A DNA stretch of 64,000 nucleotides from a virus (taxonomy: Duplodnaviria > Heunggongvirae > Uroviricota > Caudoviricetes): IMG/VR virus record IMGVR_UViG_3300039208_000529, positions 112,443 to 176,442 of that record; one strand, written 5' to 3'. Position numbers and translations under genes: made by a program. Below, piece by piece: positions 45,672 to 63,478 of the stretch. The notes beneath the pieces are model-generated. The model was given only the letters and a program-made list of their open reading frames with translations, ran no database searches and had not been told where the DNA came from. Every line of letters starts with the position of its first letter. Within the stretch, counting starts at the first letter, position 1.

Positions 45672-47134
45672 GATACTGAAACACGCTCACGAATTTCGGC
45701 CAACGTCCAGTCTCGAATTATTTCGCCATTGCGGAACACCGTTTGAAGCATGTTGCCGTTGGCATTATCTTGACCTTGGACAGTGAGGACTTGCCCCTCA
45801 CGTCTTACCAAAGACAGTCTACCACGCTTAGAATTCTTTGTCGAATCCGTTGCCGGTTTCTTGAAAATTTCTCGCCCCTCTTTATTTACTTGCATCCAAG
45901 AACACTTGATGGCGAATCTTTGCGTGTCGCGGTCAAAATCCTGCAATAAGCCTCCACCGCTCCCAAAAGCGATATTATCCGCCGAAATAGTATTTCGGCG
46001 AAATGATTCCAAGATTTGTTCAACGGTATGGCGTGGTTTTCTCTCCGCAAGCATATCAGAAAGTTTTTCAGTTAAGTCAGATGTGTTCCAAGAATTACGT
46101 GTCCACTTAATACCATCGCCCTGAATCATACGAACATATGGAGGCAACACATGATATCCTTTACTATTTACTTCTGTGCCAAATTCCTCGGCTAATGCTT
46201 GGAATACCTGAATATCAATATCGGGAAGCGTTCCGGAATCTGGACGGAATACTACTGTGCCGTTCCGACTGCGGATCATGTCATAAATATCTCTGTTTTT
46301 AGCAATCACTTGATCGATAAAACCAATCGTATCAAACGAGTCGATCACCATGGCCACAAGACCCTCGGGATGCGTAGTCAGAATCTGACGAACAATGTCG
46401 GCTTCGCCTTCTGGACCCCGAGCAGTCATAATAGAGTGCTCCGTAGCAGGGATGGAAAATCCCGCCATAGGCTCATGATAGTAGTTCTTCAAAAGAGAGA
46501 GAGCAGCCATTGTATCTGTGCCCATAGCTCCGGTAGCTAGATGGGCGGCTCCCGCTAGTGCCGCAGTCTCCACAGAGGAAACTCCTCTATAACCAAAATC
46601 ATGAAGCTTGAAATCAAGCCCTGCTGGATCTCCAGTAAGGTCTAAGTATTTCTTAATGATTTTCCTAACTTCGTGACTGCCCGTAGCCACGGTGATAGGA
46701 GACCAAACTTGCATGAGAACTGTTTCAAGGAAGTTGGTAAGCCACGGAACTTGCCAGTCGGTGTTTTCGATAGTGAAAAGCACATTCCCGGTAGGAATAA
46801 TCTCTCCCTCGGGCACTGCTTTAATTACAACAGGAAGATATCCTTTGTGCTTTTTGAGAATGTATTCCCAGCCCTCACGATTGAACACATCTTCTCGCCC
46901 AAAGTGAGCAGCACACAGTTCGGCTGCTTCATCAATTTTAGCTTGAGTTACAACTTGTCCAACTAAATACTTTTTCAGAATATATTGTAACCCAAAAAAT
47001 AGACTTGCGGGGAAGCGAGCACCAACCCTTGATTCACAGTATGAATACACCTTCTCTGTACCAGGAGGATACAGAGAATGATGAGATTGCTTATAACTGT
47101 CAGTGCCAACAGCCAATAAATTGAAATTGTTCAT
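45668..47134 (-). CDS. nadV: nicotinamide phosphoribosyltransferase (NAMPT/NadV)
   Basis: GTDSYK, GFSIPATEHS and FGSGGGLLQ motifs. Confidence 0.9.
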   Translation of the reverse strand: MNNFNLLAVGTDSYKQSHHSLYPPGTEKVYSYCESRVGARFPASLFFGLQYILKKYLVGQVVTQAKIDEAAELCAAHFGREDVFNREGWEYILKKHKGYLPVVIKAVPEGEIIPTGNVLFTIENTDWQVPWLTNFLETVLMQVWSPITVATGSHEVRKIIKKYLDLTGDPAGLDFKLHDFGYRGVSSVETAALAGAAHLATGAMGTDTMAALSLLKNYYHEPMAGFSIPATEHSIMTARGPEGEADIVRQILTTHPEGLVAMVIDSFDTIGFIDQVIAKNRDIYDMIRSRNGTVVFRPDSGTLPDIDIQVFQALAEEFGTEVNSKGYHVLPPYVRMIQGDGIKWTRNSWNTSDLTEKLSDMLAERKPRHTVEQILESFRRNTISADNIAFGSGGGLLQDFDRDTQRFAIKCSWMQVNKEGREIFKKPATDSTKNSKRGRLSLVRREGQVLTVQGQDNANGNMLQTVFRNGEIIRDWTLAEIRERVSVS

Positions 47135-47409
47135 TATCCAAGTCCTTTCATAAATCCAAAAAGAATACGACTTTTCTCGTTATCCTCTCTATTATGAAAA
47201 ATCAAGTAGTTTTTGTACCGACGTTGCTCGCTAACTCTTGATGCCACAAGTAACGCAATAGGCCAATACAATGTATGTAGCATCAGTTTGTTTTGCAATC
47301 TGTATTGCAAAATTCGAGTTGAGATAGATGGCAGTCCAATATTGATGTATGTCAAAAAAACAAGCATACCAAGCAAAACAATAACTAAGGTACTCATAAT
47401 TATCTCCAT
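47134..47409 (-). CDS. small membrane protein (2 TM segments)
   Basis: Hydrophobic helices. Stop/start overlap with nadV. Confidence 0.5.
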   Translation of the reverse strand: MEIIMSTLVIVLLGMLVFLTYINIGLPSISTRILQYRLQNKLMLHTLYWPIALLVASRVSEQRRYKNYLIFHNREDNEKSRILFGFMKGLG

Positions 47410-47870
47410 GCAGGCGGCCTAATCATATATGGCATCAATTCTGCTATTAGACCGGTCTCAAGCGGAATCCCACTTTTGCTCAAAATAAGTCTATTCCAAA
47501 CTTGGTATCTATGATCCCAGTCCTTTTCAGAGATATCATCCGGTCTGTCTGTTGAATTCTGATAGTGAAAGTCTTCAATTTCCCCTACTTTTTCAAGCAA
47601 GGATTCTTCCAACTTATTTAAAGAGCAATGGATTATACCATACCAAGCGTTTGTTACATCGTCCCAATAGACAGAAATAGAAGCGTCATATTCTTCCTTT
47701 AATGCTCTATATACATTAAAGTAGTCCTCTGATTTAGCACTGCATCCATCCAAGAGATCTTCAAAAAACTGTCGTGTGATATCTCTACACTCATCTATAA
47801 CTCTAAAAAGAGCCGGTGTATCAAATGAATCAATATTAAACTTGATCCCACCCCAAATTTTTGTACTCAT
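47400..47870 (-). CDS. hypothetical protein
   Basis: Start taken at the internal Met (MSTKIWGG...), 2 nt after the upstream small ORF stop. Confidence 0.5.
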   Translation of the reverse strand: MSTKIWGGIKFNIDSFDTPALFRVIDECRDITRQFFEDLLDGCSAKSEDYFNVYRALKEEYDASISVYWDDVTNAWYGIIHCSLNKLEESLLEKVGEIEDFHYQNSTDRPDDISEKDWDHRYQVWNRLILSKSGIPLETGLIAELMPYMIRPPAWR

Positions 47871-47872
47871 AG

Positions 47873-48001
47873 TTAATCGCAGAAGCAAATTAGGGCCGCT
47901 AACCCGGCGAGGAACGCACCAAAAACAAACCCTTTGACGATGCACAACACGCAAACACCAATCATTGCGATGCCACCAATTGTGCGTCGTACGTCAATCA
48001 T
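47873..48001 (-). CDS. small membrane protein (42 aa, below the cutoff)
   Basis: ATGA overlap with the Nudix gene stop. MIDVRRTIGGIAMIGVCVLCIVKGFVFGAFLAGLAALICFCD. Confidence 0.4.
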   Translation of the reverse strand: MIDVRRTIGGIAMIGVCVLCIVKGFVFGAFLAGLAALICFCD

Positions 48002-48489
48002 TCTCTTGTTGGCCAATTTTTATACTCACTCTTTTTCCAGGTCATATAGTCTACAATCATCTGACCGTGATCAAAACAAATGTTATTAATTGCTGGACCC
48101 TCAAGGCTTGCAACGAATCCACCACCATTCATATTGCCGTCGAAACAGAAATCTTTAGTATTAAACAGCACAATATTTTTAGCATCATCTGCTGCTTTAG
48201 GTTCACCAAGAGCTTGTGCCACATAACAGACTGTTACACAATGTTCTCGGGGATCCCTGTTTGGATTAGAATACGTATGAAATTGCACAATATCCGTAAT
48301 CAAAAGACCAGTTTCCTCCTCCGCCTCACGGATAGCCGCTTGCATTGTAGTTTCTCCGATATCCACAAACCCGCCAGGCAAAGCATATCCGTGAGGCGGA
48401 TTCTTCCGTTCAATCATTACAATATGATCTTCTTTGTGAGCCAATTCAATAATGATATCGACGGTTAGCTTAGGAGTTTTGTGAGACAT
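47998..48489 (-). CDS. Nudix hydrolase
   Basis: Nudix box GGFVDIGETTMQAAIREAEEETGL. Start taken at the internal Met. Confidence 0.8.
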   Translation of the reverse strand: MSHKTPKLTVDIIIELAHKEDHIVMIERKNPPHGYALPGGFVDIGETTMQAAIREAEEETGLLITDIVQFHTYSNPNRDPREHCVTVCYVAQALGEPKAADDAKNIVLFNTKDFCFDGNMNGGGFVASLEGPAINNICFDHGQMIVDYMTWKKSEYKNWPTRE

Positions 48490-48838
48490 CAGGACGTTTC
48501 TCCGTTTTGCTTCTCGACAAAATTTTCCACCTGTCAACCGGATCTGTACCGATCAGATCTCTTACCGTAGGTTTTATATCGCCCTTATATGCTTTTGGTT
48601 TAGTCCACCTATTACCACTTTTCATACCAACCAAGCCCATGATCCTAAAAGGACAATCTTCTTTAATGTCAAAAAATCTATCCATAAATACTACAATATA
48701 TTTGTCGCCATCTGTCCTTTGGAGAATTGCCCCCTCCGACAAACCCTCGGTGTGATCGAGCGGCTCTAATTGCTTTAACAAGTCTTCTGCCCAAACATGT
48801 AACTTGTCATTCCCAGCTGCATTCAATTGATTTTCCAT
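48470..48838 (-). CDS. hypothetical protein
   Basis: 122-aa ORF. Confidence 0.45.
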   Translation of the reverse strand: MENQLNAAGNDKLHVWAEDLLKQLEPLDHTEGLSEGAILQRTDGDKYIVVFMDRFFDIKEDCPFRIMGLVGMKSGNRWTKPKAYKGDIKPTVRDLIGTDPVDRWKILSRSKTEKRPDVSQNS

Positions 48839-49520
48839 TCCAAATTACGTAGTGAAACAATTCAATGATTGGGCAACAGACCCACTCTGTTTGTCCTACT
48901 ATACCACGGTCAGGCTCATGATGATGTCCGAAAAACCAGAATTTCGGCTGAAATTGGTCCATGACAGCCTGAAGGCACTGACGATCACCCTTACTACTTA
49001 TGTCTGGACTACTATATCGCGTGTCCGAGTAAGGAATCGAAAGAGGATGGTCGTGACTGAAAATGGCATCAATTGGTCCATCTTGAGACAACGCTTTCTT
49101 GGTTTCTTCGTATGTGATACTTTCTTCTGGCCACCAGTTTAATCCTTCGGTACGATATTCTTTATCATATGAAGTAGCACCACCAAAGAACATAGCTCGC
49201 GTTGCTTCGCCAAATTCCATTACGTCACCACGAGGATGATATCTAGTCCACTTATTTCCAGATCCGCCTTTTGCTCGCAAAAGCGGATGGTTGTCGTGAT
49301 TTCCGTCGCACCAATCAATCACAATGTTAGGAGGACCATCATGTTTATAAAAGCTTTTCTTGTACTTGAAAAATTTATTATAAAGATTTGGCCAACCGTC
49401 AGCAAAATCTCCCACTTGAACAATGTGCGTAATATCGGAATGCTGCTTCATTGCTTTAGCAATAGTAATATTCATAGCGGTCCAATCACCATGAACGTCT
49501 CCTAGAACTAAAGCTTTCAT
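48807..49520 (-). CDS. Ser/Thr protein phosphatase (lambda-PPase/ApaH-like metallophosphoesterase)
   Basis: VLGDVHGD, GDFADG, DGNHD and GHHHE motifs. Confidence 0.8.
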   Translation of the reverse strand: MKALVLGDVHGDWTAMNITIAKAMKQHSDITHIVQVGDFADGWPNLYNKFFKYKKSFYKHDGPPNIVIDWCDGNHDNHPLLRAKGGSGNKWTRYHPRGDVMEFGEATRAMFFGGATSYDKEYRTEGLNWWPEESITYEETKKALSQDGPIDAIFSHDHPLSIPYSDTRYSSPDISSKGDRQCLQAVMDQFQPKFWFFGHHHEPDRGIVGQTEWVCCPIIELFHYVIWNGKSIECSWE

Positions 49521-49897
49521 CCTAAGATCCCAGGTAAATCATTTACCAAAATCGTGTATGGAACATATCTAACGGACCAAAATCCGGCATGATCTAGGTG
49601 ATCTACCATACCTAAAGCTGCTGGTTGGTTAACTGAGTGAATTACGATTGTAGTTTCTCTATGTTTTTCTTGCTCAGCAAGCCAGAAAGCAACTTTGCTA
49701 CCGGAGTTTTTATCACCGCAGTCAACATGTTCCTGACCCAGATCATGGTCCAAAAACATCATATCATACTTTCCTTTAGAAAGAAAGCGGATAGCGTCAT
49801 TTGCTGTGGTGGCATGATCAATTGAATGACCTCTTAGAGCATCGCGAAACACTTCCATACGATACTCGCTGTCCTCAAGAATAAGAATATTCATCAC
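49517..49897 (-). CDS. CheY-like receiver-domain protein (stand-alone)
   Basis: ILILEDSE...YDMMFLDHDLG pattern with conserved acidic residues. 126 aa. Confidence 0.5.
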   Translation of the reverse strand: MMNILILEDSEYRMEVFRDALRGHSIDHATTANDAIRFLSKGKYDMMFLDHDLGQEHVDCGDKNSGSKVAFWLAEQEKHRETTIVIHSVNQPAALGMVDHLDHAGFWSVRYVPYTILVNDLPGILG

Positions 49898-50085
49898 ATT
49901 TTCCAGAGTGTAGCTAGACCAGACTTCACACCTTTAGCAAGCAAGATCACAAGAGCAATGGGCCAAATTACAGCGAGACCAGCCCATTCCCAAAAGCTAT
50001 AATCCATTTTATCAAGCCATAAGATCATGTTCGTAATGTTCAATACAGCTACTCCCACCAAATAGATCTCAACTATCATTTGCAT
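49894..50085 (-). CDS. small membrane protein (2 TM segments)
   Basis: Hydrophobic 63-aa ORF. Confidence 0.45.
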   Translation of the reverse strand: MQMIVEIYLVGVAVLNITNMILWLDKMDYSFWEWAGLAVIWPIALVILLAKGVKSGLATLWKM

Positions 50086-50269
50086 CTAGCTCCATTTTGA
50101 TATTCTCGATCATATGTACTATTCGTCTGTAAGCTAAAAGTTGCCCGCGATAAATATCGAGAGTTTCTTGATGAGGCTTAGTATTTCCCTCTTGCATTTT
50201 ATTCACAAGAGATTCCGCCAGCAACATTCCTTCAATACAGGTTTTTCTTATTTCTGAGAACGATGCCAT
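50069..50269 (-). CDS. hypothetical protein
   Basis: 66-aa ORF. Confidence 0.4.
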   Translation of the reverse strand: MASFSEIRKTCIEGMLLAESLVNKMQEGNTKPHQETLDIYRGQLLAYRRIVHMIENIKMELDANDS

Positions 50270-50574
50270 GCTTCAGCCTGCTCTTCTGTCATGAAATAAC
50301 ATTCTTCCTCTGATTCAGTATCCCACGTAGAAGAAATATACCCAGCTTCTACAAGGTCGTCAAGAGTCTGTTTCATTTTGGCATCCATCAGAGCCTCTTG
50401 AAGCTCTTTAGCAGAAATCTTGTCGCCAATGTTCCATCGTGCAATCGCAAAAGCAAAAGCCCATTCAGAAAACCCACTGGGATTATCGGGATCATACTCT
50501 TCGCCAGTGCTCCAGTCGACATCCTTGCGTGCTTTTTCCAGAGGAATTTTTCTTGAAATAACGAAGTGTTCCAT
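50248..50574 (-). CDS. hypothetical acidic protein
   Basis: 108-aa ORF. Confidence 0.45.
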   Translation of the reverse strand: MEHFVISRKIPLEKARKDVDWSTGEEYDPDNPSGFSEWAFAFAIARWNIGDKISAKELQEALMDAKMKQTLDDLVEAGYISSTWDTESEEECYFMTEEQAEAWHRSQK

Positions 50575-50649
50575 TAGTTTTTCACATCAATCCAGGGTCG
50601 CGGCGGTTCGGGCTCGATACAAATCCAGCCCTCGTCTTGAATGAAATCG

Positions 50650-50973
50650 TTAGCTGCTGAAGGAATCATAATTAGTAGTTATTTGTCCTAAGTAGGCGTA
50701 TCCACCCTTTTTAAACTTTTCAAAGAGTTCTTTTTGAGTTTTTGGTCTCCGATAATTGGAAAACGCGAGAAACGGATTTGCTCCAAGCCCGCCAGCAACA
50801 AAAAGATCTGGCATACTGCTGTCTGACCAAAGTCTAAATATGACTACAGGAACACTTCTCTTAGCTTTAAATACAGCACCAGGAGTGATCAGGTCAATAC
50901 TTAGCGGTTCAGTCTTTGGCTTGAGTTTTCCATCCAGGACATTCTTCGCCCATTTTTTTATATCATCGTTCAT
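50650..50973 (-). CDS. hypothetical protein, paralogue family member C
   Basis: MNDDIKKWAKNVL...VPVV...GGLGANPF...GYAYLG signature. Confidence 0.55.
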   Translation of the reverse strand: MNDDIKKWAKNVLDGKLKPKTEPLSIDLITPGAVFKAKRSVPVVIFRLWSDSSMPDLFVAGGLGANPFLAFSNYRRPKTQKELFEKFKKGGYAYLGQITTNYDSFSS

Positions 50974-51136
50974 CGGGCCACAGATCCTCCGCCATCAGCA
51001 TCGCTCTTAAAATCTTAACTTCCAACTTCCACACTGGAATCGGAGTATTCAGAGTATACCCTTCTCGAAGGACTTCGGCAAGAATTTTCATCTCTGCCTC
51101 AGTCAAATCCAGAGTTACTCGTTTTTTCTTCGTCAC
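50963..51136 (-). CDS. small RHH-like protein (57 aa, GTG start, below the cutoff)
   Basis: GTG..TGA ORF MTKKKRVTLDLTEAEMKILAEVL... overlapping the start of 50650..50973. Confidence 0.25.
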   Translation of the reverse strand: MTKKKRVTLDLTEAEMKILAEVLREGYTLNTPIPVWKLEVKILRAMLMAEDLWPDER

Positions 51137-51249
51137 GTATATTACCTACATAAACCCATTTTTCAGCCAAACCACTCCAAAGCTCAATAATCCCACAAAC
51201 AATACACATTCTGCGGGAAATATCGTCATTGGTAAATATATGATTACAG

Positions 51250-51462
51250 CTAGGCATTTTGTTGTGGAAAAACGATAGATATTTCTACTTTAACTGGCTT
51301 AAAATGGGAAAGGCTGTAGATGTTGCTGAATTTCTGGGCGTCTTCCTGCGACACAAATAGTCTGGCCGCCTGCGGATTTCCAGTTTCGACGAATCGGCCT
51401 CGCGATCCTTCTGAAACGTACTTTCCAAGCTCACGAGTGCTCTGTAACAAATATCGTATCAT
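51250..51462 (-). CDS. hypothetical protein, first gene of the minus-strand block
   Basis: 70-aa ORF bordering the divergent intergenic region. Confidence 0.45.
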   Translation of the reverse strand: MIRYLLQSTRELGKYVSEGSRGRFVETGNPQAARLFVSQEDAQKFSNIYSLSHFKPVKVEISIVFPQQNA

Positions 51463-51683
51463 TCAAAGTTTTCCTCGACTACCTGTTTTTTAAAAAAAGC
51501 TTTCAGCTTACTAGGATGTCTGGAAATGGGCCTTCTGTCAACTGCCAATGTGGCAGCCAACGATAAGCTTGGCGTTCACAGCTGTTTACAGCTGGCTGGA
51601 AATCGAAAGATAAATTTTAGTTTCACTACCAAACGTACCTTATATATCTAACGAGTCAACCAAGAAATTCCAAAAATTTCTGT

Positions 51684-51711
51684 TTGACGATCAGAGGATT
51701 AGGTGTAGTAT
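51684..51711 (+). promoter_or_regulatory. sigma70-like promoter (TTGACG-16-TAGTAT)
   Basis: Hexamers read directly; located in the ORF-free divergent region. Confidence 0.45.
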
Positions 51712-51719
51712 AGAGGCAC

Positions 51720-51911
51720 ACGAACGAAAGAACGTGGGTTTGAAAAGTAGGAAGATGGAGTGCGGGACTAGCATCTCGCTGCAAAAAGATTGCCCCAACC
51801 GGATTGCTACTCCGGACCAAAGAGTACCAGCGGGCCAGAGCTGAGGAAAATGGTGAGTAAAGAGATCACCGCCGACCTTCGGAACTCTTGGGGCAATCAC
51901 TCGTTTTTTTT
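51720..51911 (+). ncRNA. candidate structured sRNA of about 190 nt
   Basis: Downstream of the 51684 promoter. 9-bp long-range stem GATTGCCCC (51788-96)/GGGGCAATC (51890-98) enclosing local hairpins, followed by T8 at 51904-51911. Confidence 0.35.
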
Positions 51912-51912
51912 C

Positions 51913-51940
51913 TTGACATCTTGGAACAACGTGCTATTAT
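51913..51940 (+). promoter_or_regulatory. near-consensus sigma70 promoter (TTGACA-16-TATTAT) preceded by a T-tract
   Basis: -35 at 51913-51918, -10 at 51935-51940. Drives the tRNA-like gene and the downstream structured RNA. Confidence 0.6.
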
Positions 51941-51991
51941 AGCATTACCTTCGGCGGGTCCGAGGGCATCTTTGACAATAAGGGAACACAT

Positions 51992-52065
51992 GACCCTGTA
52001 GTTTAATGGAGAACATCGGCGTTAATCTGCCGACGGCATAGGTTTGAATCCTGTCGGGGTCGCCA
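51992..52065 (+). ncRNA. atypical tRNA-like gene with an 8-nt anticodon loop (GUUAAUCU), 3-bp D stem and short variable loop
   Basis: 7-bp acceptor GACCCTG/CGGGGTC, anticodon stem TCGGC/GCCGA, T arm ATAGG-TTTGAAT-CCTGT, CCA encoded. 71 nt plus CCA. Confidence 0.45.
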
Positions 52066-53030
52066 TGACTCGATCGTCTAACTTAATAGGACACTTCCCA
52101 GCACGGGAAGAAATAGTGGAGAATGACCATTTCGAGTCACCAGAATACGTCCCTGTCACTGGGACGTTAAACCTTGTGCTTTTTTCTAGCCGGGCCGGGC
52201 ACTCTTCGGAGTGATAGGTGGAAGCTGGCTGATTGTTGGACGGTACCTACTGGAGGGCAATCACTAGGTCAGTGAGATGATGGACGGGTGGTGACACACT
52301 CTAAGTTATCGAGTAACTGGAGGTAAGAGCTTGTATGTCGCTACAAGAATACTGCCAAAGGAAGAGTGGATTTCTTCATTTATCAGAACAACGGTTGGGA
52401 AAGAACTTTATTGTAAAAAGTATCTTGGGAAAATGGCTGAAAAGCCATAAAATGGAACTATGTGAAGCAGAAGCGTCTAATCTTGTTTCCGAAAGGAAAT
52501 GAGGGTCCCGCGAGGGGTATTGCGGAGATTATCCCAAGTAATCAAAGTGATACGTGCTATTGAGAAGAGGTTGATCGCCTTGTTCAAGAAAACACAGAAT
52601 GTTTTGCATATTACTGGCCTGCTGTTGGGTGCCGCGAGGTAACGACAGGGATGAAGCTAGTGAAGGGATTAATACCCCCGTTCACAGACACCTAACCATG
52701 TATAACGTCACGTACTTATCGGTGGTCACTAGCAAAAAGGGTTAGATCTTGTGATAGCCTGAATCAAGCACTCACCGGAAAACCGAGTGAGAGGCTGTTT
52801 TAGCATCGGCACGAATGGCGGACAGCAGGTAATCATGGTGCAAAGAGATTACCATTTATGCGTCGGACGTATCCTGATCGATCTATTAGGATAGGAGTAA
52901 GTGGAAACCTTACCTGACGCACCATACAAAACGGGGGCTGCGGCCCGCGTGGATAGCCCGGCAAAGGGTGGTCCACGAAGGCGTGAAATCCTTAGAAATT
53001 AAAACGCAGATGATTAACAAAGGAATAAAA
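52066..53030 (+). ncRNA. large non-coding structured RNA candidate of about 950 nt (GOLLD/ROOL-like or degenerate group I intron-like). No ORF of 60 aa or more on either strand.
   Basis: Many short GC stems capped by tetraloops: UUCG at 52200-52213, GAAA at 52486-52499, GCGA at 52507-52516 and 52632-52639. Perfect hairpins at 52147-52167 and 52828-52853. Confidence 0.45.
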
Positions 53031-53480
53031 ATGAATCTTCTTACAACTTTACTTTTTTGCCTTGTTTGTCAAGGCAATCCATATGAACCAGCTGACTGTA
53101 GTCTTCTAGCTTTTTCATGCCCTCCGGAAAAACCACATATGAGTATTCCATGTATTATGGCGTGCGATGCTGCATATCTAGAAACATGCGAAGCGATCTT
53201 TGCAGCTTCGAGTGAAGCATGGGGAGATGTTCTTGATTTTTTGATGGAATCTGACGCAGCTTGTAGGCTGCTTCCGGTTGGTGAACAAGCCGAGTGTTTT
53301 GCTAGTAATCTAAGAATTGCTCAAGATAGCTGGTATAATATTGCAATTGCTCATAGCAATGAAATGGTACAAGCAATTGTTGATTTTCAGGAATGTGCTG
53401 AAAAATGTTGCTTTCCTGACTTGACGTTCAATCCTAAAGTTCTATTTAAAGGAACCACGCTTACCGTTCGTTCACAATGA
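53031..53480 (+). CDS. secreted Cys-rich protein, paralogue of 59351..59836
   Basis: AAGGA RBS before the internal ATG (MNLLTTLLFCLVCQG...), signal peptide. NPYEPADC...CPPEKP motif shared with the paralogue. Confidence 0.6.
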   Translation: MNLLTTLLFCLVCQGNPYEPADCSLLAFSCPPEKPHMSIPCIMACDAAYLETCEAIFAASSEAWGDVLDFLMESDAACRLLPVGEQAECFASNLRIAQDSWYNIAIAHSNEMVQAIVDFQECAEKCCFPDLTFNPKVLFKGTTLTVRSQ

Positions 53481-53671
53481 CCAATTTAATACAGTGGGCT
53501 AAAGAACAATTGTATAGGCCACGCTGTGAAAATTGCGATAGTTATGAAATGATTTGGTGGGGTGGAATAAAACACAAAGAAGAATGGTGGTGCTGTCTTG
53601 AGTGCAACGATCTTCTTTTTAGAGAATTCGATTGCGGGGTGGAGCAGTCTGGTAGCTCGTCAGTCTCATAA
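53477..53671 (+). CDS. small zinc-ribbon-like protein; 3' end overlaps tRNA-Met by about 39 nt
   Basis: ATGA coupling with the upstream gene. CENC...CCLEC pairs. Confidence 0.4.
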   Translation: MTNLIQWAKEQLYRPRCENCDSYEMIWWGGIKHKEEWWCCLECNDLLFREFDCGVEQSGSSSVS

Positions 53672-53710
53672 ACTGAAGGTTCACGGGTTCAAATCCCGTC
53701 CCCGTTACCA
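53633..53710 (+). tRNA. tRNA-Met (anticodon CAU) with an unpaired 1-72, initiator-like
   Basis: Close to E. coli tRNA-fMet (TGCGGGGTGGAGCAG...CTCATAA...GGTTCAAATCC), but the anticodon stem lacks the three consecutive G-C pairs. Confidence 0.7.
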
Positions 53711-53711
53711 T

Positions 53712-54182
53712 TTAAGATTTCACTAGATGTTCAATTGCATGACAGTTTGGACATAGTATTTCTAAATTTGACAACTTGTTATTTTTGTGGTTATGATCTA
53801 TATGATGCACCTGTAGTATTTTTTTATATTTATTGTAGTTACATCTATTACATTTATTTGGAAGCTTACTCCACGCTAAAGCACGATATCCTGTACCATA
53901 GTGATTAGGTTGAATGGCTTTTATTCCACCGATGCGTTGAGCCTGATCTTTATGTTGTCGGCAACAAAAGAATAAACCGCTTTTTGAATTACGCTGTTTG
54001 CTGCGGTTAAGATAAAACGGTTTCTTACACTGAGCACATTTAACATTGGGTACAGGATCTCGTTTACGGAATCTATTTGAACAAGAAATGGAACAAAACC
54101 GACCGTTGCCTCGATTGACTTCTTTCAACGATGCTTTAAATAGTTGGTGACAATACTCACATAAGCGATTTGTCGTTTTCAT
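53712..54182 (-). CDS. HNH homing endonuclease
   Basis: HHIDHNHKNN...LEILCPNCH motif. Lone minus-strand gene between tRNAs. Confidence 0.8.
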   Translation of the reverse strand: MKTTNRLCEYCHQLFKASLKEVNRGNGRFCSISCSNRFRKRDPVPNVKCAQCKKPFYLNRSKQRNSKSGLFFCCRQHKDQAQRIGGIKAIQPNHYGTGYRALAWSKLPNKCNRCNYNKYKKILQVHHIDHNHKNNKLSNLEILCPNCHAIEHLVKS

Positions 54183-54197
54183 TATATAAATATCTCC

Positions 54198-54273
54198 GGG
54201 GGTATAGTGCTAATTGGTAACACACGGCCCTTGCAAGGCCGAATACGGGGATCATAACCCCGTGCCTCCACCA
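54198..54273 (+). tRNA. tRNA-Ala (anticodon UGC) with a non-canonical T-loop (ATCATAA)
   Basis: Acceptor GGGGGTA/TGCCTCC, anticodon arm CGGCC-CUUGCAA-GGCCG, CCA encoded. Confidence 0.6.
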
Positions 54274-54318
54274 GTATATTACACTAATGCAGACTGAACT
54301 CGCTCCACCATAAAACAA

Positions 54319-54403
54319 GTGCAATGCCCAGGGCGGATCTTCGACGGAAGATGCCGGTTCGACTCCGGAGGGACTGTAGAGGTTCGAATCCTTAATTGCA
54401 CTT
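54319..54403 (+). ncRNA. tRNA-like element: perfect 7-bp acceptor GTGCAAT/ATTGCAC, no CCA, two T-arm-like hairpins; it does not fold as a canonical cloverleaf
   Basis: Hairpins CCGG-TTCGACT-CCGG, GAGG-TTCGAAT-CCTT and ATCTTC-GACG-GAAGAT read directly. Confidence 0.35.
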
Positions 54404-54438
54404 TTAGAACGCATCCGATCCCGGGGTAGCAGCTAGCA

Positions 54439-54675
54439 ATGTCATTGGACAAAAAGATCAGGGACGAGCAAGTGGAAGGCTTGTATTACAAGTATTTTAC
54501 GGAAGATGGCGGACAATATATCACCATACCTACAAAATTTGAAGATGAGTGGTATGTTGGTGTTTATGATGCTTTTACGGGAATGGAACTAAAAGACCCA
54601 AAAGCAAGATTGCTTAGGTTCTATAACGTTACTGCTTCTGAAGCTTCAGACGAAGCCGTTAAACTAGTCACATGA
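54439..54675 (+). CDS. hypothetical protein
   Basis: 78-aa ORF. Confidence 0.5.
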   Translation: MSLDKKIRDEQVEGLYYKYFTEDGGQYITIPTKFEDEWYVGVYDAFTGMELKDPKARLLRFYNVTASEASDEAVKLVT

Positions 54676-54983
54676 AAACCAAAATCTATTACAGTGTACA
54701 AAATTATGGCGATGGCACTGCTCATCCTGTGTTTTTTAGTTCACAAGAATTAGCTGATCTGCATCAAAAACATCAATGTGAAGGTTGGGCTGAAGATTGT
54801 GTTGGTTTTATCGAAATTGAATCCGATAATCCTATTCAATGCGTTCAGGTGCAAACTCGCAAAGATATGCTCAAAGAGCTTCACGAAGATTTGTTTGATG
54901 AAAACGGTGAATTAGAGTCCTGGGTTGACGACGACGACGAGTCGTGGAAATTCTATCAAGACATTCTAATGTTGGATCAATAA
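54672..54983 (+). CDS. hypothetical acidic protein
   Basis: ATGA overlap with the upstream gene. Confidence 0.5.
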   Translation: MKTKIYYSVQNYGDGTAHPVFFSSQELADLHQKHQCEGWAEDCVGFIEIESDNPIQCVQVQTRKDMLKELHEDLFDENGELESWVDDDDESWKFYQDILMLDQ

Positions 54984-55576
54984 TATTGAAGCAGTATCCC
55001 TCAATCCCATCGAAGATCATTTACAGCACTCCTATTTATGCTTTCGATAAACTGGACGGCTCGAATATTCGCGTCGAATGGACGAGAAAACGCGGGTTTC
55101 ACAAATTTGGCCGCAGAAACGGATTGTTGGACGACTCAAATCCAATCCTAAAAAAATCGATCCCCATATTTGAAGATAAATATTCTGATGATCTGGAAAA
55201 GATATTCTGCAAGCAAGGCTGGGACAAGACAATTGCTTACGTAGAATTTTATGGATCCAATTCCTTTGCCGGATTTCACGATGAATCCGACGACCACACG
55301 GTAACACTCTTTGATGTGTGGGTCCATAAGAAAGGCTTCGTACTTCCAAACCACTTTCTTTCTCTATTTAAAGATGTTGATATTCCTAATGTTGTGCATC
55401 GTGGTAAGGTCAATAAAGAAGTAGAAGGAAACATTCGTCAATCCACACTTGACGGAGTTACCTTTGAAGGTGTAGTGTGTAAGGGGCCGGGCATCTCTTT
55501 CAAGATTAAGACTAGAGCCTGGCTTGAAAAATTGAAGGCCGTGTATAGTGATCAGGAGTTTGAGCGTCTCAAATGA
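54944..55576 (+). CDS. minimal ATP-dependent RNA ligase-like nucleotidyltransferase (Rnl2-type NTase core)
   Basis: Motif I AFDKLDGSN; motif IV DGVTFEGVVCK; motif V SFKIKTRAW. Start position uncertain. Confidence 0.6.
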   Translation: MEILSRHSNVGSIILKQYPSIPSKIIYSTPIYAFDKLDGSNIRVEWTRKRGFHKFGRRNGLLDDSNPILKKSIPIFEDKYSDDLEKIFCKQGWDKTIAYVEFYGSNSFAGFHDESDDHTVTLFDVWVHKKGFVLPNHFLSLFKDVDIPNVVHRGKVNKEVEGNIRQSTLDGVTFEGVVCKGPGISFKIKTRAWLEKLKAVYSDQEFERLK

Positions 55577-55718
55577 GACAGTACGGGAAAACTAAGATTA
55601 AGTGTAAGGTGCCTGGTCACGGACACGGTTGCAGTATTTGTGTTCCAGATACCGATAAAAAAATAGGGCGGGCCCGTGCTCGTCGCAAAGGAAAAAAAGA
55701 ATGTCTCGGTGGTGTTTA
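55573..55718 (+). CDS. small Cys/His-rich basic protein (48 aa, below the cutoff); 3' end overlaps tRNA-Gly
   Basis: ATGA coupling to the ligase stop. MRQYGKTKIKCKVPGHGHGCSICVPD...RARARRKGKK. Confidence 0.3.
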
Positions 55719-55778
55719 ATGGTAGCACAAGGGATTTCCAATCCTTTAGTCTGAGTTCAAATCTCAGTCGGGACTCCA
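55703..55778 (+). tRNA. tRNA-Gly (anticodon UCC)
   Basis: Acceptor GTCTCGG/TCGGGAC, anticodon arm AGGGA-UUUCCAA-TCCTT, T-loop TTCAAAT, CCA encoded. Confidence 0.8.
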
Positions 55779-55788
55779 AATTTTTATT

Positions 55789-56238
55789 ATGAAAGAAAAA
55801 ATCGACGGCCTGAGGGAGCAAGCGAAAGACTTGGAAGAGAGAGCGTCGCTGCTCGAAGCATACAGCGTCTTGCGGGAAGCAAGTCATCTAGAATGGCGAG
55901 CAAGAGAAATGCTTGGTTTTCCAAACGACATGCTTCATGTGTGTCGTGCTCTTGATAAAGCTAAACACAACATTGCGATCAAGCTTGGTCACAGCGAGAG
56001 AGCAGAAAAACTTATTCAATGCGGTATGACTCCTGAGTTTGTTGAAGGTTGTAATTTTGTCGACGATGATACTGCTGCTGCATGTCTCGCTACGTGGCTG
56101 TTTGATCAATTTGGATTATTTGAGTACCTGTCTGATGCATCAGATTATAAACAGGACTATCAGGGAGTTTTTGATAAAGTTTCAGAGATTTTCCCGTTAG
56201 GATTAGAGTTTTATAAAACAGCTAATCACGATACCTAA
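55789..56238 (+). CDS. hypothetical protein
   Basis: 149-aa ORF starting 11 nt after the tRNA-Gly CCA. Confidence 0.55.
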   Translation: MKEKIDGLREQAKDLEERASLLEAYSVLREASHLEWRAREMLGFPNDMLHVCRALDKAKHNIAIKLGHSERAEKLIQCGMTPEFVEGCNFVDDDTAAACLATWLFDQFGLFEYLSDASDYKQDYQGVFDKVSEIFPLGLEFYKTANHDT

Positions 56239-56503
56239 GTAATGACGAAAAAATGAGTCGTTCTACGTTGTCAGTAGGATACCTTCTCGTGGGCGGAAGC
56301 CTCCCATTGGGAGAAACTTGATCCACGGTTGAAATGACAAGCTATTTAAAAAACCCACAGTATATATTTGGGTGCCTATAATCAAGTAGCTTCTACTGGA
56401 AATCGGTAGAATTGAAAATAAATACCGGTCAGTTTATAGGATAGCATTCCGGATGAGGTCGTGTAAACCGGCCAGAAAGCGGAGTATCTTACACGTCATT
56501 ACG

Positions 56504-56531
56504 CTTGACTGGCACGCAAAGTGTGCTAGAA
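56504..56531 (+). promoter_or_regulatory. sigma70-like promoter (TTGACT-16-TAGAAT) upstream of 56542..56796
   Basis: Hexamers read directly, in a 300-nt intergenic region. Confidence 0.5.
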
Positions 56532-56541
56532 TGTACTTACT

Positions 56542-56796
56542 ATGAGTGATCTAGACAAATGGATCGAGGGCCATATCGCAGGATGGCAAAGAGTGCTGCC
56601 ATCCATTTTCAGCGATCTTGTTTCTGACGATCAGCTTGTTTATGAAGATGGCAAGCAACAAATTCTCGGCATGGTTCAATGTCTTGAGGTTCTTAGGAGG
56701 CTGAAGCTTCGCGAGACAACCCTTGAGGATGAATGGGAAAAACCGATGCCTGGACCTCACGTAGAAGCTATGTTGGAGGAAGTATGCAGTCCGTAG
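56542..56796 (+). CDS. hypothetical protein
   Basis: 84-aa ORF. Confidence 0.5.
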   Translation: MSDLDKWIEGHIAGWQRVLPSIFSDLVSDDQLVYEDGKQQILGMVQCLEVLRRLKLRETTLEDEWEKPMPGPHVEAMLEEVCSP

Positions 56797-57014
56797 ATTG
56801 GATTTACGATTGGGTGGATCTTAAATTTCGCAGCAGCGAGTTTGCTGATGTTGATAAAAGATTGGCGTCTATTGATTTGCAGAAAACTAATATGACAATC
56901 TTATTGACTTGGCTCACGGCAACATTTTCAGCTAGGTCTAAATTGCCATCGCGTGAAGCTATTTTTAATTATGTGGATGAAAATTCTCACGATGCAGCAA
57001 GGGGCCTGAAATGA
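56733..57014 (+). CDS. hypothetical protein
   Basis: 93-aa ORF. Confidence 0.4.
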   Translation: MGKTDAWTSRRSYVGGSMQSVDWIYDWVDLKFRSSEFADVDKRLASIDLQKTNMTILLTWLTATFSARSKLPSREAIFNYVDENSHDAARGLK

Positions 57015-57202
57015 CCAAAGAGGAATTTATTCAACAATATATTGTCCAGTTTATGGCATCGTATGCGGCTGTAAATTATGCAGATGCGTGTTGTATGGGA
57101 GCGTTTGGACATTTACATAGATCGGAAGATGCTGAACGTCTAGCTGAAAAAGCTTGGGATGATTATGTTTTGTACACTACTCGTGGAAGAAAAACAAAAT
57201 GA
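57011..57202 (+). CDS. hypothetical protein
   Basis: ATGA overlap with the upstream gene. Confidence 0.45.
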   Translation: MTKEEFIQQYIVQFMASYAAVNYADACCMGAFGHLHRSEDAERLAEKAWDDYVLYTTRGRKTK

Positions 57203-61493: not shown

Positions 61494-61672
61494 TCCCGGA
61501 AATTAAAGATCGTAATATTTTGGCAGAATTGTTTTGGCTCCTTGTCACTGCTGTATTTTTCAGCATCTTAATGGCTTCTTTTGGCTGGTGGAAACTACCC
61601 TTCTTTCTTGCTCTTGGTTGGTTTTGGCCTGAGATCTATTATAGAGTTAAAGACTTCTTTTCAAGAGAATAG
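61490..61672 (+). CDS. small membrane protein (2 TM segments)
   Basis: ATGA overlap with the upstream gene; hydrophobic. Confidence 0.45.
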   Translation: MIPEIKDRNILAELFWLLVTAVFFSILMASFGWWKLPFFLALGWFWPEIYYRVKDFFSRE

Positions 61673-61855
61673 ATGTACCAATACGGAGATTTTATAAAAC
61701 AAGTGCTAAGGGCCGTATTTCAACTTACTGATGCCCAGCTAAGATCACTCATCACTGCACTTGAATTAGAATTACAGGATAGAGCTAAAAATGGAAAGCA
61801 AAGCAGACAAGCTGGTGGAAGTCCTGAGGAGATTGCTGGAACCGAAGCCGAATGA
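61673..61855 (+). CDS. hypothetical protein
   Basis: 60-aa ORF. Confidence 0.4.
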   Translation: MYQYGDFIKQVLRAVFQLTDAQLRSLITALELELQDRAKNGKQSRQAGGSPEEIAGTEAE

Positions 61856-61979
61856 CGTGAGCGGAAAAGACTTTGCTGCCGTCAGTCAGTTTCGTCGCAA
61901 GATTCTACTTTCTCTATTTTCAGATATTGTTTTATCTGATAAAGACTCTAAAGAATTACTAGATCGATTGAGAGATTGA
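61791..61979 (+). CDS. hypothetical protein
   Basis: 62-aa ORF overlapping the previous gene in another frame; only one of the two is likely to be real. Confidence 0.3.
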   Translation: MESKADKLVEVLRRLLEPKPNDVSGKDFAAVSQFRRKILLSLFSDIVLSDKDSKELLDRLRD

Positions 61980-63401: not shown

Positions 63402-63478
63402 CAAACCCCTAGCGGGGGTTAGAATGTAGGTAATCGCGGGCGGCAATAGGGCCGCCCGCAAAACCAGACTACAAATAT

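What the first reader, a model, noticed from the sequence alone, without database searches (positions are those of the whole stretch)
52066..53030. Approximately 950-nt ORF-free, highly structured RNA locus under a consensus promoter
There is no ORF of 60 aa or more on either strand across roughly 1 kb, in a genome that is otherwise packed with genes. The sequence is full of short GC stems capped by stable tetraloops. Examples are CACTC-UUCG-GAGTG at 52200-13, TTTCC-GAAA-GGAAA at 52486-99, CCC-GCGA-GGG at 52507-16 and CC-GCGA-GG at 52632-39. There are also perfect hairpins (ACGTCCC/GGGACGT at 52147-67, GGTAATC/GATTACC at 52828-53, TATCCT/AGGATA at 52872-95). The locus lies downstream of the TTGACA-16-TATTAT promoter at 51913-51940 and adjacent to tRNA-like genes. 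That context and density of GNRA/UUCG motifs are what one sees in large ornate phage ncRNAs (GOLLD/ROOL class) or in a self-splicing intron-like ribozyme. Short stretches loosely resemble group I P/Q/R elements (TTGCGGAG / GCCGCGAGG / GTTCACAGACAC), but I cannot confirm a P7 or G-site.
Basis: seen in the sequence. Interest (0 to 1): 0.8.

Follow-up and report, generated by a model that had tools for sequence, protein, structure and literature searches.

The report
Phage tRNA-island non-coding RNA mosaic
The roughly 1-kb gene-free stretch is a real non-coding RNA locus in the tRNA region of an uncultured T4-like phage, but it is a patchwork of two unannotated tRNA-like genes, one small conserved RNA module and about 650 bases of orphan hairpin-rich RNA, and it does not belong to any known large RNA or intron family.

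Summary
Window 51901-52967 is the longest ORF-free stretch in the window. All three stop codons occur in all six frames, and the short ORFs have non-coding codon usage. GNRA/UNCG-capped hairpins number 6 on the + strand and 1 on the - strand (shuffles average 1.2). A near-consensus promoter lies upstream.

No Rfam family matches, even at E<=10, so GOLLD, ROOL, group I/II introns, RNase P RNA and tmRNA all fail.

The tract resolves into parts:
- 52067-52142 is a non-canonical cloverleaf tRNA-like gene with an encoded ACCA end. It has homologues in seven related phage contigs and very strong covariation.
- 52860-52924 is a three-helix mini tRNA-like element that also ends in ACCA.
- 52794-52854 is a two-hairpin module shared at 88% identity with one distant relative, with two compensatory changes.
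- 52143-52793 is an orphan hairpin-rich RNA with no homologue anywhere. Its folding z-score is unremarkable.

Best reading: one promoter drives a polycistronic precursor in which the tRNA-like elements act as processing punctuation. The function of the central RNA is not established. Interest is moderate. I class it as a new variant of the known phage tRNA-island non-coding RNAs.

The parts
51913..51940 (+). Sigma-70-type promoter TTGACA-16-TATTAT with a TG extended -10 element. It is the presumed start of the transcript that carries everything listed below.
   Evidence: 11 of 12 matches. Transcription itself was not tested.
51992..52065 (+). tRNA with an 8-nt anticodon loop (GUUAAUCU) and an encoded GCCA 3' end. 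It lies just upstream of the finding.
   Evidence: ARAGORN and the Rfam tRNA model at 52 bits. Relaxed ARAGORN reads a quadruplet anticodon 'taat'. Homologues with 8-nt loops occur in L030 and L032.
52067..52142 (+). Non-canonical tRNA-like gene. It has a 7-bp acceptor stem GACUCGA/UCGAGUC and a tRNA-Glu-type D arm (UCGUCUA..AGGAC). The anticodon stem CUUCC(C)/(G)GGAAG carries an aberrant loop AGCAC. The T arm is AGUGG-AGAAUGA-CCAUU, with no T-Psi-C sequence. It ends in an encoded ACCA.
   Evidence: The MFE fold is a cloverleaf, z = -3.6. An alignment of 8 sequences gives 96.4% of cells paired, 14 of 21 pairs with changes on both sides, and 0 of 500 shuffles as good. Covariance model R2 scores it 83 bits. 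The Rfam tRNA model does not report it even at E<=10, and ARAGORN misses it even at 75% thresholds.
52147..52183 (+). Perfect 7-bp hairpin ACGUCCC/GGGACGU, followed 10 nt later by a U6 run. It is not a canonical terminator because of that spacing.
   Evidence: pair probability 0.74. No terminator was called here.
52184..52400 (+). Predicted multi-branch domain closed by UUCUAGCCG/CGGUUGGGA. It contains the UUCG-capped hairpin at 52200-52213 and four further hairpins.
   Evidence: (closing helix probability 0.97). Prediction only; no homologues are available.
52433..52518 (+). Three consecutive GNRA-capped hairpins: AUGGCU-GAAA-AGCCAU, CUUGUUUCC-GAAA-GGAAAUGAG and GUCCC-GCGA-GGGGU. This is the most stably folded 150-nt window of the tract.
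   Evidence: The local z-score for 52400-52549 is -5.4.
52143..52793 (+). Central orphan RNA segment. It includes the previous three parts and the GCGA hairpin at 52630-52641. No homologue was found anywhere.
   Evidence: nhmmer, blastn and covariance-model searches found nothing. No pseudogene remnants were found. Short ORFs have non-coding codon usage and match no protein family.
52794..52854 (+). Conserved two-hairpin module. Hairpin 1 is GGCUGU[..GCAUCGGCACGAAUGGCGG..]ACAGC. Hairpin 2 is GGUAAUC[AUGGUGCAAAGA]GAUUACC. Both loops contain AUGGYG.
   Evidence: 88% identical to L004 18442-18502 within otherwise unalignable sequence. Two compensatory stem changes and a 1-nt indel are present. 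Model R1 scores both copies 96-97 bits and nothing else above 17 bits.
52860..52924 (+). Mini tRNA-like element. It has a 7-bp acceptor stem GCGUCGG/CUGACGC, a single 9-bp arm in place of the D and anticodon arms, a T arm GUAAG-UGGAAAC-CUUAC, and an encoded ACCA end.
   Evidence: R2 scores it 18.5 bits, E = 2.6e-4. A strict acceptor + T-arm + NCCA detector finds it, together with ten of the window's eleven called tRNAs (it misses 37483-37553) and only one other hit in 128 kb of strand. The MFE fold gives z = -4.3.
52935..52977 (+). Two G+C-rich hairpins, GGGC-UGCG-GCCC and CGUGGAU..GUCCACG, at the start of the leader of the next gene.
   Evidence: probabilities 0.82-1.0. The local z-score for 52850-52999 is -3.5.
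53020..53480 (+). Ribosome-binding site AAGGAA and a 149-aa gene (ATG at 53031) of unknown function. It marks the downstream limit of the non-coding tract.
   Evidence: No Pfam or PHROG match. Its only database relatives are identical copies from the same phage.

Best explanation
The tract is the non-coding 5' part of a polycistronic transcript in the tRNA island of an uncultured T4-like phage. The promoter at 51913-51940 would drive, in order:
- a tRNA with an 8-nt anticodon loop (51992-52065);
- a non-canonical tRNA-Glu-type tRNA-like RNA (52067-52142);
- about 650 nt of hairpin-rich RNA (52143-52793);
- a conserved two-hairpin module (52794-52854);
- a mini tRNA-like element (52860-52924);
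- a 149-aa gene and further tRNAs.

The tRNA-like elements, each with an encoded NCCA end, most likely act as processing punctuation. RNase P would cut at their 5' ends, and endo- and exonucleolytic trimming would finish their 3' ends. That would release stable tRNA-like RNAs and a free RNA of about 720 nt (roughly 52143-52859) that carries the conserved module at its 3' end.

Shown here: the tract is non-coding; the structure signals are strand-specific; the cloverleaf at 52067-52142 covaries; the module is conserved.

Inferred: transcription, processing, and any function of the central RNA. In kind, this is the same phenomenon as the stable RNAs of unknown role made from the phage T4 tRNA cluster, and as the tRNA-island association of GOLLD and ROOL. 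There is no homology to either of the latter.
For: Non-coding.

Promoter.

Strand-specific excess of tetraloop-capped hairpins: 6 on + against 1 on -, P about 0.002, and the maximum for the whole window.

tRNA-like gene at 52067-52142: cloverleaf MFE fold; 8-sequence covariation with 14 of 21 pairs changed on both sides and 0 of 500 shuffles as good.

Mini tRNA-like element at 52860-52924.

Module at 52794-52854: conserved at about tRNA level with a phage whose NAMPT protein is only 61% identical; two compensatory changes; an indel that excludes coding.

Context: 11 tRNAs, an RNA ligase and an HNH endonuclease lie nearby. Relatives carry 0.8-1.4 kb conserved ORF-free RNA tracts with tRNA-like elements ahead of their tRNA arrays.

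Precedents: T4 RNAC and RNAD are made from the tRNA region and their roles are unknown (PMC3014915, PMC9697503). GOLLD and ROOL are phage-encoded and often lie near tRNA islands (PMC12286853).
Against: No expression data exist. The central 650 nt has no homologue and so no covariation support. Its global folding z-score (-2.4) is within the range of coding controls.

At the syntenic position, between the divergent promoters and tRNA-Met, relatives L001 and L018 lack the tract. It is therefore lineage-specific and could be dispensable.

The module has only two known members. In L004 the corresponding RNA tract tolerates a 340-nt HNH gene insertion, which argues for independent modules rather than one large fold.

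No terminator defines a 3' end.
Confidence: 0.55

Rival explanations
1. Only the small pieces are functional: the two tRNA-like genes and the 60-nt module. On this reading the central 650 nt is fast-evolving filler. It could be debris of rearrangements and homing-endonuclease traffic in a recombination-prone tRNA island. Its hairpins would be incidental, or would serve only as RNA stability or processing signals.
For: No homologue of 52143-52793 exists in any collection searched. The tract is absent from the syntenic site in L001 and L018. The relatives' tracts are mosaics of shuffled modules with HNH insertions. The global z-score is no better than coding controls.
Against: Five of the six GNRA/UNCG-capped hairpins lie in this segment. 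They are strand-specific, with P about 0.002, and the count is the highest in the window. The window 52400-52549 has z = -5.4. No remnants of decayed genes were found. Phage genomes rarely keep 650 nt of true junk.
Confidence: 0.25
2. The whole 52066-53030 region is one large ornate RNA of the GOLLD/ROOL type, with tRNA-like domains built into it. It would fold, and perhaps oligomerise, as a single unit.
For: Its size and its context (phage, tRNA island, tRNAs within or adjacent) match what is reported for GOLLD and ROOL (PMC12286853). It has many GNRA loops. Only its 3' part is conserved with L004, which recalls GOLLD's conserved 3' and variable 5' halves. The whole-region z-score is -4.0.
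Against: The GOLLD and ROOL models do not match at E<=10. Only 60 nt are conserved, not hundreds. The tRNA-like units fold autonomously and belong to a family that occurs without this tract in relatives. The L004 tract is split by an HNH gene. Predicted long-range helices conflict with the covariation-supported hairpin 1, and their complementary sequence is absent from L004.
Confidence: 0.12
3. The tract is a long structured 5' untranslated leader that regulates translation or stability of the 149-aa gene at 53031.
For: No terminator separates them. G+C-rich hairpins at 52935-52977 sit just upstream of the ribosome-binding site.
Against: A 965-nt leader is far beyond known phage leaders. It contains complete tRNA-like genes with CCA ends that would be excised. 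No riboswitch or leader family matches. The module is conserved in L004, where it is not followed by a homologue of that gene.
Confidence: 0.06
4. The tract is a self-splicing group I or group II intron, another known ribozyme, or a hidden protein gene read with a recoded stop codon. The phage does carry a CUA-anticodon tRNA.
For: A suppressor-type tRNA lies at 40450-40525. A 55-aa ORF at 52335 has a GGAGG sequence 11 nt upstream.
Against: No Rfam intron or ribozyme model matches at E<=10. There are no flanking exons. All three stop codons occur in all frames. Short-ORF codon scores are at most 0.078, against at least 0.118 for real genes. No protein family hits were found. The conserved block carries a frameshifting indel.
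Confidence: 0.02

Closest known systems
Phage T4 tRNA-cluster stable RNAs (RNAC and RNAD, also called species 1 and 2)
   Same: They are non-coding RNAs encoded inside the tRNA gene cluster of a T4-type phage and made together with the tRNAs. Their role is still unknown (PMC3014915, PMC9697503). From my own knowledge, untested here: they are excised from tRNA precursors and have tRNA-like 3' ends.
   Different: The T4 RNAs are about 120-140 nt, whereas this tract is about 965 nt with a central piece of about 650 nt. Sequence relatedness to RNAC and RNAD was not tested. The phage group here is known only from metagenomes.
GOLLD RNA (Rfam RF01998) and ROOL RNA (Rfam RF03087)
   Same: They are large, ornate, phage or prophage-encoded RNAs that often lie next to tRNA islands. 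GOLLD sometimes has tRNAs in its linker, and has a conserved 3' and a variable 5' region (PMC12286853).
   Different: Neither covariance model matches, even at E<=10. Only 60 nt are conserved with any relative. There is no evidence for a single global fold or for oligomerisation.
Canonical tRNA (Rfam RF00005), especially bacterial tRNA-Glu
   Same: 52067-52142 has the full cloverleaf, the tRNA-Glu-type D arm UCGUCUA..AGGAC, a 4-nt variable region and an encoded CCA end. The family shows strong covariation. Some family members carry normal 7-nt anticodon loops: UUC in L032, and L001 20316-20388, which ARAGORN calls tRNA-Gln.
   Different: The T loop is AGAAUGA (UGAAAUA or UGAAACA in relatives) instead of T-Psi-C-R-A. 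The D loop has no GG. The window copy has a 5-nt loop, or a 7-nt loop with A at position 33. The Rfam tRNA model and ARAGORN do not report it.
tRNA punctuation of polycistronic transcripts (mitochondrial model) and tRNA-like 3'-end processing signals such as MALAT1 mascRNA
   Same: tRNA or tRNA-like structures flank a longer RNA, so that RNase P and 3' processing enzymes would define its ends. This is an inference from the layout.
   Different: Those systems are eukaryotic or organellar. Processing was not tested here.
T-box leader and RNase P RNA L15 loop (binding of the tRNA 3' NCCA end by a UGGN or GGU loop)
   Same: Both invariant loops of the 60-nt module contain AUGGYG. That sequence is complementary to C72-R73-CCA of the tRNA-like 3' ends in the same transcript.
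   Different: No T-box or RNase P model matches. The complementarity was noticed after the fact and rests on two sequences only.

Membership tests
GOLLD RNA (RF01998) | Match to the family covariance model (conserved 3' domain) | tested here: not met
   No hit at the gathering score or at E<=10 in 51400-53300 or 52060-53040. None in relatives either.
GOLLD RNA (RF01998) | Phage or prophage location next to tRNA genes, length around 800 nt | tested here: met
   T4-like phage tRNA island with 11 tRNAs. The tract is 965 nt.
ROOL RNA (RF03087) | Match to the family covariance model | tested here: not met
   No hit at E<=10.
Group I intron | Conserved catalytic core (P3-P9, with P7 holding the guanosine site), detectable by the Rfam models | tested here: not met
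   No group I model hit at E<=10.
Group I intron | Insertion within a host gene, with exons on both sides | tested here: not met
   The upstream flank is a complete tRNA ending in CCA at 52065. The downstream flank is a gene with its own ribosome-binding site and ATG at 53031.
Group II intron | Domain V and the domain I-VI architecture; often an intron-encoded reverse transcriptase | tested here: not met
   No Rfam hit. No ORF of 60 aa or more.
RNase P RNA, tmRNA and other known ribozymes | Match to the Rfam models; a tmRNA call by ARAGORN | tested here: not met
Canonical tRNA (for 52067-52142) | Cloverleaf with a 7-bp acceptor stem, D, anticodon and T arms, supported by covariation | tested here: met
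   96.4% of cells paired and 14 of 21 pairs with changes on both sides. The MFE fold is a cloverleaf.
Canonical tRNA (for 52067-52142) | T-Psi-C T loop, GG in the D loop, 7-nt anticodon loop with U33; a score above the Rfam or ARAGORN thresholds | tested here: not met
   The T loop is AGAAUGA and the D loop is AACUUAAUA. The anticodon loop is AGCAC, or CAGCACG with A33. Not reported by the Rfam tRNA model at E<=10 or by ARAGORN at 75% thresholds.
Canonical tRNA (for 52067-52142) | Aminoacylation and use in decoding | not testable with these tools
   This needs charging assays or tRNA sequencing.
T4-type tRNA-cluster stable RNAs (RNAC/RNAD) | Encoded within the phage tRNA gene cluster on the tRNA strand | tested here: met
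T4-type tRNA-cluster stable RNAs (RNAC/RNAD) | Co-transcription with tRNAs, excision by RNase P, accumulation as stable RNA; sequence relatedness to T4 RNAC or RNAD | not tested
   No expression data exist. The T4 sequences were not compared. The tract has no blastn match in 50,697 GenBank phage records.

The most novel reading that the evidence does not exclude
The RNA of about 720 nt (roughly 52143-52859), released between two tRNA-like punctuation marks, is a new class of large phage RNA. Its invariant two-loop module (GAAUGGCGGA and UCAUGGUGCAA) would dock the C72-R73-CCA 3' ends of tRNAs or tRNA-like RNAs, in the way the T-box bulge or the RNase P L15 loop does. One loop would match G73 ends and the other A73 ends. 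The RNA could then tether, shield or present phage or host tRNAs. One possible setting is during attack by host anticodon or CCA-end nucleases, alongside the neighbouring RNA ligase.
Probability: 0.08. Interest if true: 0.85.

Novelty: new variant of a known kind. Interest (0 to 1): 0.45.

Why it matters
Phage tRNA islands hold RNAs whose roles have stayed open for decades. T4 RNAC and RNAD are one example, and GOLLD and ROOL are more recent ones. This locus adds three things:
- A covariation-supported family of cloverleaf RNAs with a non-T-Psi-C T loop and variable, often aberrant anticodon loops. The two detectors run here, ARAGORN and the Rfam tRNA model, missed it. tRNA counts in phage metagenomes may therefore be too low, and tRNA mimics overlooked.
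- A 60-nt module held at tRNA-level conservation between distant phages. Its loops are complementary to tRNA CCA ends, which gives a testable RNA-RNA interaction.
- A candidate long RNA bounded by tRNA-like processing signals.

If the central RNA proves stable and functional, it would be a third, unrelated type of large tRNA-island RNA. If it does not, the locus still shows how such islands accumulate and shuffle RNA modules.

Tried and rejected
1. Known RNA families. Rfam was run at gathering scores on the whole window and at E<=10 on two sub-ranges. L004 was scanned at E<=10, and seven related loci were scanned at gathering scores. Only tRNAs came up.

2. Hidden coding. I checked the stop-codon map, codon-usage scoring of every short ORF, PHROG and Pfam scans of six short ORFs, and six-frame peptides against all fetched loci for pseudogene remnants. 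All were negative.

3. Finding homologues.
- blastn against GenBank phages gave no match.
- The downstream 149-aa protein has only identical copies, from SRR4039775/6, which is the same phage.
- NAMPT, RNA-ligase, phosphoesterase and rIIB anchors fetched about 25 related loci. nhmmer and covariance-model searches of these found only the 60-nt block in L004 and the tRNA-like genes.
- Exact or gapped pattern scans for the module returned only L004 in the viral contigs. In the metagenome collection (L007) and the genome collection (L022-L028) they returned only chance hits inside G+C-rich coding DNA.

4. I tested whether the relatives' conserved 113-nt element occurs in the window. Collinear words such as GGCUGAUU and GAUGAUG had suggested it. 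Covariance model R3 found nothing.

5. A long-range helix 52603-52633 / 52808-52844 appears in the MFE fold. It competes with the covariation-supported hairpin 1, and its complementary sequence is absent from L004. I did not adopt it.

6. Duplex searches for a conserved pseudoknot partner of the module loops were uninformative beyond the complementarity to CCA ends.

7. tmRNA-like and two-piece readings of the mini tRNA-like element were rejected. It has no G3-U70 pair, and neither ARAGORN nor Rfam calls a tmRNA.
Full report
**Setting.** The window is part of an uncultured T4-like phage. Near the finding it encodes nicotinamide phosphoribosyltransferase (NAMPT, 45668-47134, - strand), an NMN-adenylyltransferase-like protein, a metallophosphoesterase, an RNA ligase (54944-55576) and an HNH endonuclease (53712-54182, - strand). 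ARAGORN and Rfam together call eleven tRNAs, including a CUA-anticodon tRNA. The identical NAMPT protein is on record on a 177,556-bp JGI contig, and 100% identical copies of parts of the window (47031-54458 and 52197-57129) occur in Logan assemblies of SRR4039775/6. The nearest relatives have NAMPT at only 55-67% identity. They carry rIIA/rIIB genes. The two non-coding stretches queried have no blastn match in GenBank phages. Genes to the left of about 51460 run on the - strand and genes to the right of 53031 run on the + strand, so the finding sits at a divergent switch point.

- 51901-52967 has no ORF of 60 aa or more on either strand and is the longest such gap in the window. With an 80-aa cut-off the gap is 51011-52967.
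- TAA, TAG and TGA are all scattered through all six frames, so the suppressor tRNA cannot rescue an ORF.
- The eleven ORFs of 35-56 aa in the tract score -0.22 to +0.08 per codon on a codon-usage log-odds trained on the phage's own long genes. Real genes score 0.12 to about 0.27, and shadow ORFs average -0.10.
- The six longest short ORFs match no PHROG or Pfam family. Six-frame peptides find no decayed gene among the relatives.
- Hairpins with stems of 4 bp or more capped by GNRA or UNCG number 6 on the + strand and 1 on the - strand. Dinucleotide shuffles give 1.18 +/- 1.10, and 0.2% reach 6. No other 965-nt window on either strand of the 64 kb reaches even 5.
- The promoter at 51913-51940 is 11 of 12 to consensus with a TG extended -10 element.
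- One qualification applies. The z-score of -4.0 for the whole 965 nt (-1.9 for the opposite strand) is driven largely by the ends. The central 717 nt has z = -2.4 on + and -0.8 on -, and eight coding controls of the same length range from +0.3 to -2.7. In a local scan, only 52400-52549 (z = -5.4) and 52850-52999 (z = -3.5) stand out.

**What it is not.** cmscan against all 4227 Rfam 15 families gives nothing in 52066-53030 at gathering thresholds, and nothing credible at E<=10 with relaxed filters. That covers GOLLD, ROOL, HEARO, OLE, group I and II introns, RNase P RNA, tmRNA, T-box and the small ribozymes. ARAGORN finds no tmRNA. The tract is not inside a host gene. A complete tRNA ending in CCA precedes it, and a gene with its own ribosome-binding site follows it.

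**What it is, piece by piece.**

(a) 52067-52142 is a tRNA-like gene. It starts one base after the CCA of the upstream tRNA. A profile of the relatives' non-coding tracts hit this spot. A motif search then recovered a family marked by the tRNA-Glu-type D arm UCGUCUA..AGGAC in seven related contigs. In an 8-sequence alignment the cloverleaf is 96.4% paired. Fourteen of 21 pairs show changes on both sides. None of 500 shuffles and none of six slid registers comes close. The window copy folds into the cloverleaf on its own, with z = -3.6, and ends in an encoded ACCA. It is not a standard tRNA:
- The T loop is AGAAUGA (UGAAAUA or UGAAACA in relatives).
- The D loop lacks GG.
- The anticodon arm has a 6-bp stem with a 5-nt loop.
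- Neither the Rfam tRNA model at E<=10 nor ARAGORN at 75% thresholds reports it.

Anticodon loops differ in length and sequence among family members. Some look usable: UUC in L032, and L001 20316-20388, which ARAGORN calls tRNA-Gln.

(b) 52860-52924 is a mini tRNA-like element. It has a 7-bp acceptor stem, one 9-bp arm, and a T arm with loop UGGAAAC, then ACCA. The family model scores it 18.5 bits, E = 2.6e-4. A strict acceptor + T-arm + NCCA detector finds it along with ten of the window's eleven called tRNAs (it misses 37483-37553) and only one other hit in 128 kb of strand. Its fold has z = -4.3.

(c) 52794-52854 is a two-hairpin module. It is the only part of the tract that aligns to any other phage, at 88% identity to L004 18442-18502 (IMG/VR contig 3300023223_000669, NAMPT 61% identical). 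Each stem carries one compensatory change (G-C to A-U, U-A to G-C). A 1-nt indel rules out coding. In L004 the module also lies in a long ORF-free tract. That tract sits under a TTGACA/TATAAT promoter and ahead of tRNA-Tyr, at a different genomic position (downstream of rIIB), and is split by an HNH gene on the opposite strand. Pattern scans of the viral, metagenome and genome collections found no third member. All extra hits lie in coding DNA and lack the stems.

(d) 52143-52793 is an orphan. It carries five of the six tetraloop-capped hairpins. It also has a confidently predicted multi-branch domain at 52184-52400 and three tandem GNRA hairpins at 52433-52518. It has no detectable relative. 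A 113-nt structured element that follows the tRNA-Glu-like gene in four relatives is absent from the window.

(e) 52935-52977 holds two G+C-rich hairpins ahead of the ribosome-binding site of the 149-aa gene.

**Comparative context.**
- Relatives L015, L018, L019, L029 and L032 share 0.8-1.4 kb of conserved ORF-poor sequence between rIIB and tRNA-Tyr. It is rich in tRNA-like units, some with 50-110-nt insertions.
- At the position syntenic with the finding, between the divergent promoters and tRNA-Met, L001 and L018 have only short promoter-driven leaders. The 965-nt tract is therefore specific to this lineage.
- These islands are mosaics in which modules move and homing endonucleases insert.

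**Mechanism proposed.** One promoter makes a polycistronic precursor. The tRNA and tRNA-like units are recognised by RNase P at their 5' ends and by the 3' trimming machinery. This releases them and frees an RNA of about 720 nt that ends with the conserved module. The remaining transcript continues into the 149-aa gene and tRNA-Met, with no terminator in between. The layout and the tRNA-likeness are shown. Transcription, cleavage and stability are inferred from established tRNA processing. The nearest precedents are the T4 tRNA-cluster RNAs RNAC and RNAD, whose roles are unknown (PMC3014915, PMC9697503), and the tRNA-island association of GOLLD and ROOL (PMC12286853). I put 0.55 on this reading. 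I put 0.25 on the variant in which the central segment is functionless filler, 0.12 on a single GOLLD/ROOL-like ornate RNA, and the remainder on a regulatory leader, an intron or hidden coding.

**An unexplained detail worth testing.** Both invariant loops of the module contain AUGGYG.
- Loop 1 (AUGGCG) is complementary to CGCCAU, the 3' end of the upstream tRNA at 52061-52066.
- Loop 2 (AUGGUGC) is complementary to GCACCAU, the 3' end of the mini tRNA-like element at 52919-52925.

Loops that stay identical between phages, while everything around them diverges, suggest a universal target. C72-R73-CCA is such a target, and the T-box bulge and RNase P L15 bind CCA ends in this way. This was seen after the fact and rests on two sequences, so I give it about 0.08.

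**Verdict.** The locus is a real non-coding RNA locus, but a composite one, and it belongs to none of the known large RNA or intron families. Its solid novelty is the unannotated non-canonical tRNA-like family and the conserved module. The large central RNA remains a candidate without comparative support. Interest is 0.45. I class it as a new variant of the known phage tRNA-island non-coding RNAs.

Noticed in passing
window 51992-52065; L030 17638-17822; L032 19929-20102: The tRNA just upstream of the finding has an 8-nt anticodon loop (GUUAAUCU). Relaxed ARAGORN reads a quadruplet anticodon 'taat'. Homologous tRNA-like genes in two relatives also have 8-nt loops (GGUGAGAU, UUUGAAAC) and in addition carry an insertion of about 100 nt in the D loop. 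They could be frameshift-type decoders, decoys or intron-bearing tRNAs.
   Followed up: partly
window 51684-51912: A second promoter (TTGACG-16-TAGTAT) resembles the corresponding promoters in L018 and L001. It drives an ORF-free RNA of about 190 nt that ends in a U8 run at 51905-51912, immediately before the main promoter. This is probably a separate small RNA.
   Followed up: partly
window 40450-40525; also L001, L005, L015, L018, L019, L029, L030, L032: A tRNA with anticodon CUA (amber-suppressor type; ARAGORN labels it 'Pyl') is conserved across this phage group. In six of the eight listed relatives it lies shortly after tRNA-Tyr; the exceptions are L005 and L030. This hints at TAG suppression or recoding.
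   Followed up: no
L029 18269-18381; L019 18321-18431; L032 17926-18039; L015 13692-13803: A structured element of about 113 nt, 92% conserved, follows the tRNA-Glu-like gene in four relatives. Several of its pairs show compensatory changes. It has no Rfam match, no GenBank phage match, and is absent from the window.
   Followed up: yes
L015, L018, L019, L029, L032 between rIIB and tRNA-Tyr (for example L029 17736-18572): These relatives share 0.8-1.4 kb of conserved ORF-poor sequence under a promoter. It contains tRNA-like units and + strand tetraloop hairpins. This may be a family of tRNA-island leader RNAs. Its overall structure was not analysed.
   Followed up: partly
L030 4147-6283: A 506-aa Ro60/TROVE-like protein (weak Pfam hits) is preceded by 616 nt without called genes. 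That would be the expected place for a Y-RNA-like partner. No homologue of this protein is in the window (tblastn).
   Followed up: partly
L004 17735-18076 (- strand); window 53712-54182 (- strand): HNH homing-endonuclease-like genes are inserted on the opposite strand. In L004 the gene sits inside the non-coding RNA tract. In the window it sits between tRNA-Met and tRNA-Ala. Both recall segB in the T4 tRNA region.
   Followed up: no
L004 18697-18797: A tRNA-like sequence (Rfam tRNA, 33 bits) has large insertions in place of the D and anticodon region. ARAGORN does not call it.
   Followed up: no
L004 18515-18657; L005 192-332: Another conserved non-coding block of about 140 nt (nhmmer E about 1e-7), containing GGUUCGGACUGGCAUACCC, lies upstream of tRNA-Tyr in two relatives. 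It is absent from the window.
   Followed up: partly
window 51966-51976; relatives' leaders (for example column 450 of alignment A5): The 11-mer AUCUUUGACAA is shared between the window's leader just before the tRNA and the conserved leader RNAs of the relatives, where it continues CUCGGAAC. Its role is unknown.
   Followed up: no
window 62639-63484 and 61494-61975: Two further stretches without an ORF of 70 aa or more (846 and 482 nt) lie near the right end of the window. They have no Rfam hits. The tRNA-top-half detector gave one weak hit at 63102-63325.
   Followed up: no
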